From a phage, in the sequence record KM111297.1: a stretch of 853 nucleotides of DNA, one strand, 5' to 3'. The notes below the pieces were generated by a model, which searched no databases, was not told where the DNA came from, and worked only from the letters and a program-made list of their open reading frames with translations. Of this stretch, positions 1-853 are shown one piece after another (the stretch's first letter is position 1; every line of letters begins with the position of its first letter). Position numbers and translations under genes: made by a program.

Positions 1-853
1 ATGGGTATGGTGCGGCGTGCTATTCCTCATCTGATTGCTTTTGATATTTGTGGTGTTCAGCCTCTGAATAACCCTACCGGCCAGGTATTTGCACTGCGTG
101 CAGTATACGGTAAAGACCCTATCGCTGCTGGCGCTAAAGAAGCTTTCCACCCGATGTATGCTCCGAATGCTATGTTCTCTGGTCAGGGTGCTGCTGAATC
201 TTTCGAAGCACTGGCTGCAAGCAAAGTTCTGGAAGTTGGTAAAATTTATTCTCACTTCTTCGAAGCTACCGGTGCTGCACACTTCCAGGCTGTTGAAGCT
301 GTAACCGTTGATGCTACTGCTACTGATGCCGCTAAACTGGATGCTGCTGTTACCGCTTTGATTGAAGCAGGTAAGTTGGCTGAATTGGCTGAAGGTATGG
401 CTACTTCTATCGCTGAACTTCAGGAAGGCTTTAACGGTTCTACCGATAACCCGTGGAACGAAATGGGCTTCCGCATCGACAAACAAGTTATCGAAGCTAA
501 ATCCCGTCAGCTGAAAGCAAGCTACTCTATCGAACTGGCACAGGACCTTCGTGCAGTACACGGTATGGATGCAGATGCTGAACTGTCTGGTATCCTTGCT
601 ACCGAAATTATGCTCGAAATCAACCGTGAAGTTATCGATTGGATTAACTACTCTGCGCAGGTTGGTAAATCTGGTATGACCAACACCGTTGGCGCTAAAG
701 CTGGTGTGTTTGACTTCCAGGACCCGATTGATATCCGTGGTGCTCGTTGGGCCGGTGAGAGCTTTAAAGCCCTTCTGTTCCAGATTGATAAAGAAGCAGC
801 CGAAATCGCTCGTCAGACCGGTCGTGGTGAAGGTAACTTCAAATCGGATCCCG
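1..853 (+). CDS. 23: Major capsid protein gp23 of a T4-type (T-even-like) myovirus; internal fragment, partial at both the 5' and 3' ends
   Basis: Frame 1 is open across all 284 codons (nt 1-852) with no stop; the supplied ORF track omits it, presumably because it has no in-window stop. The translation contains long runs that match T4 gp23 as I recall it, e.g. MGMVRRAIP-LIAFDICGVQP, PTGQVFALRAVYGKDP, AAGAKEAFHPMY, AMFSGQGAA, EGMATSIAELQEGFNGSTDNPWNEMGFRIDKQVIEAKSRQLKA-YSIELAQDLRAVHGMDADAELSGILATEIMLEINREV-DWINYSAQVGKSGMT, AGVFDFQDPIDIRGARWAGESFKALLFQIDKEA-EIARQTGRGEGNF. Codon choice is strongly biased (gct, ggt, ctg, gaa, aaa, cgt, ttc, acc, ccg), typical of a highly expressed gene in an enterobacterial host. 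The ATG at nt 1 is an internal Met codon (T4 ...AVMGMVRR...), not the start. The last 3-4 codons (nt 841-853) may not be native. Confidence 0.93.
   Translation, partial: MGMVRRAIPHLIAFDICGVQPLNNPTGQVFALRAVYGKDPIAAGAKEAFHPMYAPNAMFSGQGAAESFEALAASKVLEVGKIYSHFFEATGAAHFQAVEAVTVDATATDAAKLDAAVTALIEAGKLAELAEGMATSIAELQEGFNGSTDNPWNEMGFRIDKQVIEAKSRQLKASYSIELAQDLRAVHGMDADAELSGILATEIMLEINREVIDWINYSAQVGKSGMTNTVGAKAGVFDFQDPIDIRGARWAGESFKALLFQIDKEAAEIARQTGRGEGNFKSDP
841..853 (+). other. Possible non-native 3' junction: BamHI site GGATCC (nt 846-851) within the terminal sequence tcggatcccg
   Basis: After the conserved ...GRGEGNF, T4 gp23 continues IIASRNVV as I recall it, but this window reads K-S-D-P (aaa tcg gat ccc g). 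The terminal 10 nt tcggatcccg are the reverse complement of CGGGATCCGA, a very common clamp-plus-BamHI primer tail. GATC is also a Sau3AI/MboI site. Natural divergence cannot be excluded. Confidence 0.4.

What the first reader, a model, noticed from the sequence alone, without database searches (positions are those of the whole stretch)
193..393. Substitution-rich central segment between near-invariant gp23 blocks, with no apparent length change relative to T4
The flanks (nt 1-190 and 394-840) are nearly identical to T4 gp23 at the amino-acid level. The central segment encodes ESFEALAASKVLEVGKIYSHFFEATGAAHFQAVEAVTVDATATDAAKLDAAVTALIEAGKLAELAEG, which differs at many positions from the T4 segment as I recall it (KKFPALAASTQTTVGDIYTHFFQETGTVYLQASVQVTIDAGATDAAKLDAEIKKQMEAGALVEIAEG) while appearing to keep the same length. 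This is the known variable part of gp23 among T4-type phages and may be surface-exposed. The pattern suggests a phage moderately diverged from T4 itself rather than a T4 isolate. The segment is Ala/Glu-rich and lacks the Lys cluster of T4, which would alter local surface charge.
Basis: partly seen in the sequence, partly recalled or inferred. Interest (0 to 1): 0.4.

Follow-up and report, generated by a model that had tools for sequence, protein, structure and literature searches.

The report
Variable insertion domain of T4-type capsid protein
The window is a PCR-amplified piece of the major capsid gene (g23) of a JS98-like relative of phage T4, and its substitution-rich middle encodes the surface "insertion domain", already known as the most variable part of this protein, so the finding is real but ordinary.

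Summary
In frame +1 the window encodes T4 gp23 residues 96-375 with no gap. Against T4, 29 of 67 residues differ in the segment, compared with 6/64 and 6/149 in the flanks (Fisher p = 4e-12).

The phage is JS98-like (genus Dhakavirus): 97.7% nt identity to WG01 and 96.3% to JS98. The segment itself is typical of that group, with 1 aa difference from WG01.

The segment corresponds to T4 gp23 residues 160-226. This is the roughly 60-residue insertion (I) domain that follows I-domain linker 1 (aa 132-160). It forms the bumps on the capsid surface and rests on the neighbouring subunit. In 80 relatives it has 4-6 times the entropy of the flanks and holds nearly all the indels. Cyanophage-like relatives keep only 23-36 residues of it. 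dN/dS is about 0.3-0.5 in the segment and 0.05-0.1 in the flanks, which indicates relaxed purifying selection rather than none.

The window ends are not phage sequence: nt 1-23 come from primer Mzia1, nt 818-841 from primer CAP8, and nt 842-853 are a non-phage tail with a BamHI site.

One side result: RB69 carries a T4-type I domain next to a JS98-like 5' flank, which points to recombination at the domain borders.

Verdict: already known, low interest.

The parts
1..23 (+). Sequence derived from PCR primer Mzia1 (5'-TGTTATIGGTATGGTICGICGTGCTAT-3', positions 5-27). The three inosines read as G.
   Evidence: Primer sequence is given in PMC4229321. The match is exact except I->G at nt 3, 12 and 15. 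Nt 12 and 15 differ from WG01, JS98 and T4, which have GTT/GTA CGT.
1..841 (+). Partial g23 coding sequence (major capsid protein), frame +1. Equivalent to T4 gp23 residues 96-375 and to WG01/JS98 residues 94-373.
   Evidence: Open frame. Pfam Gp23 PF07068 at E = 1.8e-72. Solved T4 gp23 chains 8t9r, 6uzc, 5vf3 at E about 1e-156, ungapped. Annotated as major head protein in every best hit.
109..195 (+). Region equivalent to T4 gp23 aa 132-160, I-domain linker 1 (the counterpart of the HK97 E-loop). Well conserved.
   Evidence: Linker 1 is given as aa 132-160 in PMC9546572. Coordinates were transferred through the ungapped alignment.
193..396 (+). Substitution-rich segment, the I (insertion) domain of gp23 (T4 residues 160-227). 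JS98/Dhakavirus-type allele, same length as T4.
   Evidence: 29/67 aa differ from T4. Entropy is 4-6 times that of the flanks and nearly all Straboviridae indels fall here. dN/dS is 0.39 vs 0.05-0.09. The I domain is about 60 residues and follows linker 1. No Pfam model covers the segment on its own.
397..817 (+). Near-invariant block: I-domain linker 2, the P-domain spine helix and part of the A domain. It includes the region equivalent to the Hoc-binding stretch G326-R344 (window aa 231-249, nt 691-747).
   Evidence: 6/149 aa differ from T4. Spine-helix residues 292, 306 and 307 are listed. The Hoc site is from PMC10385173. gp24 paralogy starts at gp23 residue 242.
818..841 (+). Sequence derived from PCR primer CAP8 (reverse complement of 5'-TGAAGTTACCTTCACCACGACCGG-3'). 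It imposes the T4-like codon GAA (E277).
   Evidence: Exact match at nt 818-841. Primer sequence is given in PMC4229321. WG01 and JS98 have GCT (Ala) at this codon.
842..853 (+). Non-phage tail AATCGGATCCCG with a BamHI site at nt 846-851. Most likely a cloning-vector or adapter remnant.
   Evidence: T4, WG01 and JS98 all continue with AT(T/C)ATCGCTTCCC here, so the tail diverges from all three. The vector identity rests on my own inference and was not tested.

Best explanation
The window is an Mzia1/CAP8 PCR amplicon of gene 23 from a JS98-like (Dhakavirus) T4-type phage. The substitution-rich centre encodes the I (insertion) domain of the major capsid protein. This is a globular module of about 60-67 residues inserted in the E-loop-equivalent linkers of the HK97 fold. 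It protrudes from the capsid surface and rests on the neighbouring subunit of the same hexamer.

The shell-forming parts (linkers, spine helix, A and P domains) make many obligatory contacts and are under strong purifying selection. The I domain mainly has to keep its own small fold and one interface of about 650 A2 with the neighbouring subunit, so its solvent-facing positions drift or diversify several times faster. The hydrophobic and glycine framework and the length stay fixed within Tevenvirinae.

Shown here: the clustering of substitutions, the constant length, the lineage assignment, the correspondence to the I-domain residue range, the higher dN/dS, and the family-wide variability and indels.

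Inferred from homology to solved T4 structures and from the literature: surface exposure and the stabilising role of the domain in this particular phage.
For: - **Substitution clustering:** 29/67 vs 12/213 substitutions, p = 4e-12, with no gap.
- **Lineage:** the closest genomes are all Dhakavirus at 95.3-97.7% nt identity (H1-H40). Within the segment the window differs from WG01 by 1 aa and from JS98 by 6 aa.
- **Structural mapping:** the segment equals T4 residues 160-226/227. [quoted passage not shown] - **Paralog comparison:** BLAST alignment of gp23 to its paralog gp24 starts only at gp23 residue 242, downstream of the segment.
- **Pfam:** the Gp23 profile spans 238 positions across the 280 residues, and the segment alone hits nothing.
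- **Panel of 80 distinct relatives:** mean entropy is 1.08 in the segment vs 0.25 and 0.17 in the flanks for Tevenvirinae, and 1.71 vs 0.56 and 0.40 for Straboviridae. Straboviridae indels fall at window aa 65, 67, 87, 104-109 and 115-116, with only one site outside (aa 45). Segment length is 67 aa in most Tevenvirinae-level sequences, 62-76 aa in other Straboviridae, and 23-36 aa in the cyanophage-like relatives of this panel. The Ackermannviridae phage moki in the smaller panel also lacks most of it.
- **Selection:** dN/dS is 0.30-0.45 in the segment vs 0.01-0.12 in the flanks, across six between-genus comparisons.
- **Substitution type:** 22 of the 29 substituted positions involve a polar or charged residue. 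The 38 conserved positions are mostly Ala, Leu, Phe, Val, Ile, Tyr, Gly and Thr, the pattern expected for a kept core with a changing surface.
- **Literature:** other work also finds the E-loop insertion domain to be the most divergent part of gp23 homologues (PMC4621102).
Against: - No structure of a JS98-type capsid was examined. My AlphaFold model of the 280-aa fragment was unusable (mean pLDDT 50). Exposure of individual residues is therefore inferred, not measured.
- The exact C-terminal boundary of the I domain was not found in the texts I could read. The last residues of the segment may belong to linker 2.
- dS is also somewhat higher in the segment (0.98 vs 0.60-0.70 against T4), and RB69 shows a mosaic pattern. 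Faster local drift alone therefore does not explain all the divergence, and separate allelic histories contribute.
Confidence: 0.88

Rival explanations
1. Cassette exchange. The I-domain coding segment is an old allelic module moved between Tevenvirinae lineages by homologous recombination in the conserved linker-coding flanks. On this reading, the T4-vs-window contrast reflects different ancestries of segment and flanks more than a faster local rate.
For: - For the JS98/T4/RB69 triplet, RB69 is JS98-like in nt 1-192 (18:7 informative sites; synonymous-only 14:2). It is T4-like in nt 193-393 (5:57; synonymous 1:8) and equidistant in nt 394-840 (25:28). Chi-square p = 4e-9, synonymous-only p = 9e-4. 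The switch points lie near nt 166-196 and 381-414.
- T4-RB69 dS is 0.19 in the segment but 0.81 and 0.40 in the flanks.
- IMG/VR locus L064 has T4-type flanks with the RB69-type 'ISSTADD' patch, and L020 mixes segment and 3'-flank clusters.
- dS between the window and T4 is higher in the segment (0.98 vs 0.6-0.7).
Against: - Across 32 Tevenvirinae-level sequences, segment type mostly tracks flank type. Pairwise distances correlate at r = 0.77, and only 4 pairs have a segment closer than their flanks.
- The window itself shows no mosaicism relative to its Dhakavirus relatives (98.5% and 95.9-99.5% identity to WG01).
- Recombination cannot explain the 5-8 fold higher dN/dS or the concentration of indels in this segment at every taxonomic depth.
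- No formal breakpoint method (GARD, RDP) was run.
Confidence: 0.35
2. Positive diversifying selection. Exposed I-domain residues are driven to change by an external agent such as animal-gut antibodies, environmental adhesion, or bacterial defences that sense the capsid protein.
For: - The domain is on the outer surface.
- Substitutions are mostly polar or charged and shift net charge from -4 to -7.
- Within Dhakavirus, all 6 aa differences from JS98 outside the primer-derived ends fall in the segment, with window-vs-JS98 dN/dS = 0.53.
- Position 106 takes T, A or G within a few closely related phages.
Against: - Segment-wide dN/dS stays below 1 (0.16-0.53) in all eight comparisons.
- No site-level test was run.
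- No selective agent is identified by any evidence here.
- Relaxed constraint explains the same data more simply.
Confidence: 0.2
3. Artefact. The divergent centre is a PCR chimera, a sequencing error cluster or an in-vitro construct.
For: The window is an amplicon with primer-derived ends and a non-phage tail. One primer-imposed amino-acid change, A277E, is present.
Against: - The segment is 98.5% identical at the nucleotide level to the complete genome of WG01 and 93.5% to JS98. The flanks match the same genomes at 96-99.5%, so segment and flanks come from one natural lineage.
- The frame is intact.
Confidence: 0.01

Closest known systems
gp23 major capsid protein of JS98-like phages (genus Dhakavirus: WG01, vB_EcoM_005, IME281, QL01, Bp7, JS98, JS10)
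   Same: 95.3-97.7% nt identity over the whole window (H1-H40). Outside the primer-derived codon 277, aa differences number 3 from WG01 and 6 from JS98. The I-domain allele is the same (ESFEALAASKVLEVGKIYSHFFEATG...), and these sequences cluster with the window.
   Different: Thr at window aa 106 (DATATD), where relatives have Ala or Gly. A54/N56 match JS98 but not WG01. No identical sequence is present in the phage collection searched.
T4 gp23 I (insertion) domain as seen in solved T4 head structures (PDB 5VF3, 7VS5, 6UZC, 8T9R)
   Same: Same position in the chain (T4 residues about 161-226), same length, and 38 of 67 residues identical, including the hydrophobic/Gly framework and the ATDAAKLDA motif.
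   Different: 29 of 67 residues are substituted. Net charge is -7 vs -4, and Ala content is higher.
Environmental g23 marker amplicons (Mzia1/CAP8, and the nested MZIA1bis/MZIA6 pair)
   Same: Both window ends are the Mzia1 and CAP8 primers. From memory, the shorter MZIA1bis/MZIA6 amplicon used in diversity surveys lies inside this window and spans the same variable segment.
   Different: This sequence is from an enterobacterial T-even-like lineage, not from the marine or soil clades. It carries a 12-nt non-phage tail.

Membership tests
T4-type major capsid protein gp23 (Pfam PF07068) | Significant match to the family profile above the curated cut-off | tested here: met
   245.3 bits against a cut-off of 24.4, E = 1.8e-72, residues 1-280 on profile positions 9-246.
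T4-type major capsid protein gp23 (Pfam PF07068) | Collinear homology to experimentally solved gp23 | tested here: met
   phmmer E about 1e-156 to 8t9r, 6uzc and 5vf3 chains, residues 1-280 to 96-375, ungapped. 85% aa identity to T4.
T4-type major capsid protein gp23 (Pfam PF07068) | Gene context g21-g22-g23-g24 in the head-gene cluster | not testable with these tools
   The window holds only 853 nt inside the gene. The closest genomes WG01 and JS98 have this context around the matching gene.
gp23 I (insertion) domain | Located between I-domain linker 1 (T4 aa 132-160) and linker 2, about 60 residues long | tested here: met
   The segment equals T4 residues 160-227 by ungapped alignment. The boundary and size come from PMC9546572 and PMC9958956. 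The exact C-terminal boundary was not found.
gp23 I (insertion) domain | Globular fold protruding from the capsid surface and resting on the neighbouring subunit | tested here: inconclusive
   The AlphaFold model of the fragment had mean pLDDT 50 and pTM 0.24, so it was not usable. The feature is inferred only from 57% identity of the segment to the T4 domain.
gp23 I (insertion) domain | Lineage-variable and dispensable in distant gp23 homologues | tested here: met
   Highest entropy and nearly all indels fall here. The cyanophage-like relatives keep only 23-36 residues, and the Ackermannviridae phage moki also lacks most of the segment.
Genus Dhakavirus (JS98-like phages) | Genome-wide nucleotide similarity to genus members | not testable with these tools
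   Only one gene fragment is available. That fragment is 95.3-97.7% identical to the 40 best hits, all JS98-like, with Dhakavirus taxonomy confirmed for WG01 and JS98. It is 80-90% identical to 771 other T-even-type records.

The most novel reading that the evidence does not exclude
The I-domain coding segment of g23 behaves as an exchangeable cassette among Tevenvirinae genera. Recombination breakpoints sit in the conserved linker-coding borders: RB69 has a JS98-like 5' flank joined to a T4-type I domain, and L064 has T4-type flanks with an RB69-type patch. If so, capsid surface types could be reassorted independently of the shell, possibly under selection on the exposed surface. The window would then carry the 'JS98-type' allele of such a system.
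Probability: 0.35. Interest if true: 0.3.

Novelty: already known. Interest (0 to 1): 0.1.

Why it matters
It matters little beyond correct annotation. The result confirms that the centre of this widely used g23 marker amplicon is the surface insertion domain. Most of the phylogenetic signal in such amplicons therefore comes from a fast-evolving and possibly recombining module, not from the capsid shell.

Users of the sequence should trim nt 1-23 and 818-853, which are primer or vector sequence, and should not count E277 as a real residue. For phage engineering, the tolerated substitutions mark I-domain surface positions that can vary without a change in length.

Tried and rejected
- **Structure prediction:** AlphaFold2 on the 280-aa fragment with a 41-sequence alignment gave mean pLDDT 50 and pTM 0.24. 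This was too poor for a fold search, so none was run. The alignment was dominated by cyanophage-like proteins that lack most of the segment.
- **Homologue search:** The search for homologous proteins returned few T-even-level proteins and mostly homologues of 37-43% identity. The conservation panel was built instead from annotated phage genomes and IMG/VR loci.
- **Papers not held:** Comeau & Krisch 2008 and Tetart et al. 2001 were unavailable. The primer sequences were confirmed from PMC4229321.
- **gp23-gp24 alignment:** BLAST alignment of the two paralogs to transfer I-domain boundaries starts only at gp23 residue 242. It bounds the domain from the C-terminal side but does not delimit it.
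- **Other frames and strand:** only ORFs of 71 aa or fewer were found, all embedded in the g23 frame. Nothing suggests a second feature.
- **Chimera or artefact reading:** rejected, because the segment and both flanks match the same complete genomes.

Full report
**What the window is**

Frame +1 is open from nt 1 to 852. No other frame or strand has an ORF longer than 71 aa. The translation matches Pfam Gp23 (PF07068) at E = 1.8e-72. It also matches the solved T4 major capsid protein chains (8t9r, 6uzc, 5vf3) at E about 1e-156, residues 1-280 to 96-375, without a gap.

Megablast against 50,697 phage records gives 844 hits. The 40 best, at 95.3-97.7% nt identity, are all JS98-like phages, including WG01, vB_EcoM_005, IME281, QL01, Bp7, JS98 and JS10. 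WG01 and JS98 are classified in genus Dhakavirus. A further 771 records, T-even types included, fall in the 80-90% band. In WG01 and JS98 the matching gene lies between g22 and g24, and window nt 1 is the first base of codon 94.

**The ends are not phage sequence**

- Nt 1-23 equal positions 5-27 of primer Mzia1 (5'-TGTTATIGGTATGGTICGICGTGCTAT-3'), with the three inosines read as G.
- Nt 818-841 are the exact reverse complement of primer CAP8 (5'-TGAAGTTACCTTCACCACGACCGG-3').
- The CAP8 primer carries the T4 codon GAA, so E277 is imposed by the primer. WG01 and JS98 have GCT, Ala.
- Nt 842-853 (AATCGGATCCCG, BamHI site at 846-851) match no phage. T4, WG01 and JS98 continue with AT(T/C)ATCGCTTCCC. 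I take this tail to be a vector or adapter remnant. That is an inference.

**Checking the observation**

The alignment with T4 gp23 is ungapped. Differences from T4 are as follows:

| Window region | aa differing | Fraction |
|---|---|---|
| aa 1-64 | 6/64 | 9% |
| aa 65-131 | 29/67 | 43% |
| aa 132-280 | 6/149 | 4% |

Fisher exact p is 3.8e-12. Nucleotide identity to T4 is 64% in nt 193-393 and 86-87% in the flanks.

They occupy window aa 66-132 (nt 196-396) and T4 residues 161-227, one codon downstream of the stated coordinates.

The composition remark is half right. Ala (18 vs 12) and Glu (8 vs 5) are higher than in T4. Lys, however, is 4 vs 5. The T4 pairs K161/K162 and K213/K214 are lost and K75, K81 and K125 are gained. 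Net charge goes from -4 to -7.

**What the segment is**

By the ungapped alignment the segment corresponds to T4 gp23 residues 160-226/227. Fang et al. 2022 (PMC9546572) give I-domain linker 1 as aa 132-160. [quoted passage not shown] The interface is about 460 A2 before head expansion and about 650 A2 after. Rao et al. [quoted passage not shown]

From the C-terminal side, gp24 I-domain linker 2 includes gp24 residues 143-154. BLAST alignment of gp23 to gp24 begins at gp23 242 = gp24 151. The I domain therefore ends before about residue 233. The segment is thus the I domain, possibly with the first residues of linker 2.

The Pfam profile uses only 238 positions for the 280 residues, and the segment alone matches no Pfam family. 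This fits a lineage-specific insertion.

**Family-wide behaviour**

A 17-sequence panel spanning Tevenvirinae, other Straboviridae, a cyanophage and an Ackermannviridae phage shows conserved blocks on both sides. The stretch between them is variable and changes in length.

I then aligned 80 distinct sequences: IMG/VR loci plus T4 and RB69.

| Group | Entropy aa 1-64 | Entropy aa 65-131 | Entropy aa 132-280 |
|---|---|---|---|
| Tevenvirinae-level (39 seqs, >=78% identity) | 0.25 | 1.08 | 0.17 |
| Straboviridae-level (70 seqs) | 0.56 | 1.71 | 0.40 |

- Straboviridae indels fall at window aa 65, 67, 87, 104-109 and 115-116. Only one site lies elsewhere (aa 45, in linker 1).
- The segment is 67 aa in most Tevenvirinae-level sequences and 62-76 aa in other Straboviridae.
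- It is only 23-36 aa in the cyanophage-like relatives of this panel. The Ackermannviridae phage moki also lacks most of it.
- So 'no length change relative to T4' is the rule within the subfamily, not a peculiarity of this window.

**Mode of evolution**

Nei-Gojobori estimates for the window against T4, RB69, N2, PEi20, a Jiaodavirus and an Acinetobacter phage give dN/dS of 0.30-0.45 in the segment. The flanks give 0.01-0.12. Constraint is therefore relaxed about 5-8 fold but not abolished.

Of the 29 substituted positions, 22 involve a polar or charged residue and 7 are hydrophobic-for-hydrophobic swaps. The 38 conserved residues (FALAASVGIYHFFTGQAVTDAATDAAKLDAEAGLEAEG) are largely hydrophobic, Gly or Thr. 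That is the pattern of a retained small fold with a changing surface.

Within Dhakavirus the same stretch is again the variable one. All six aa differences from JS98 outside the primer fall in it. The window's own segment differs from WG01 by a single residue, T106A.

**A complication worth recording**

dS is also somewhat higher in the segment (0.98 vs 0.60-0.70 against T4), and phylogenetic signal is not uniform along the gene. For JS98, T4 and RB69, the informative sites divide as follows:

| Region | RB69 = JS98 | RB69 = T4 | Synonymous-only |
|---|---|---|---|
| nt 1-192 | 18 | 7 | 14:2 |
| nt 193-393 | 5 | 57 | 1:8 |
| nt 394-840 | 25 | 28 | 19:18 |

Chi-square p is 4e-9 for all sites and 9e-4 for synonymous sites only. 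The switches lie at the borders of the segment.

IMG/VR locus L064 has T4-type flanks with the RB69-type 'ISSTADD' patch. PEi20 is 97-100% identical to the window over nt 481-570 but about 90% identical elsewhere in the 3' flank.

Some recombination around the I-domain borders has therefore occurred in the subfamily. Even so, segment type mostly follows flank type (r = 0.77; only 4 discordant pairs among 32 sequences). The window is not mosaic relative to its own relatives. I treat recombination as a contributor, not the main explanation.

**Comparison with what is known, and verdict**

The three corrections are the one-codon coordinate shift, the Lys count, and the primer and vector ends.

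The mechanism is ordinary. The surface insertion domain is under weaker constraint than the shell-forming parts of an HK97-fold capsid protein. The variability of this part of gp23 is already in the literature I read. From memory, Comeau & Krisch 2008 mapped about 1,400 gp23 sequences onto the structure. It is cited in PMC3012670 but I could not read it.

The window adds one more JS98-type allele with a private Thr at aa 106. Novelty: already known. Interest: low.

Surface exposure of the individual substituted residues in this phage remains inferred, because the fragment model failed.

Noticed in passing
window 1-23, 818-841 and 842-853: Both ends are PCR primers (Mzia1 with inosines read as G, and CAP8), followed by a 12-nt non-phage tail AATCGGATCCCG with a BamHI site. 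Codon 277 (GAA, Glu) is imposed by the primer, and close relatives have GCT (Ala).
   Followed up: yes
window 166-196 and 381-414 (borders of the variable segment); L016 (RB69), L003 (T4), L002 (JS98), L064: There is a mosaic signal in g23. RB69 is JS98-like 5' of the I domain, T4-like within it and equidistant 3' of it (p = 4e-9; synonymous-only p = 9e-4). L064 has T4-type flanks with an RB69-type I-domain patch.
   Followed up: partly
window 481-570 vs L004 (Edwardsiella phage PEi20): Nucleotide identity to PEi20 is 97-100% over about 90 nt, against about 90% elsewhere in the 3' flank. This may be a short gene-conversion patch or simply strong local constraint.
   Followed up: no
window 661-696 (aa 221-232; T4 residues 316-327): A second, small variability peak (N228L, V230P and A232S relative to T4) directly abuts the gp23 stretch G326-R344 that binds Hoc at the capsomer centre (PMC10385173).
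   Followed up: no
window 1-81 (aa 1-27; T4 residues 96-122): This is the most conserved stretch of the panel (entropy about 0-0.1 for aa 11-20). From memory it coincides with the Gol peptide of gp23, which activates the e14 Lit protease. PMC3014915 states that Gol is the most conserved region of gp23. The window differs from T4 here at H10N, L22M and N24S.
   Followed up: partly
window 316-318 (aa 106): Thr (ACT) occurs where the closest relatives have Ala or Gly. This is the only private residue of the window within the I domain and the most variable position inside Dhakavirus.
   Followed up: partly
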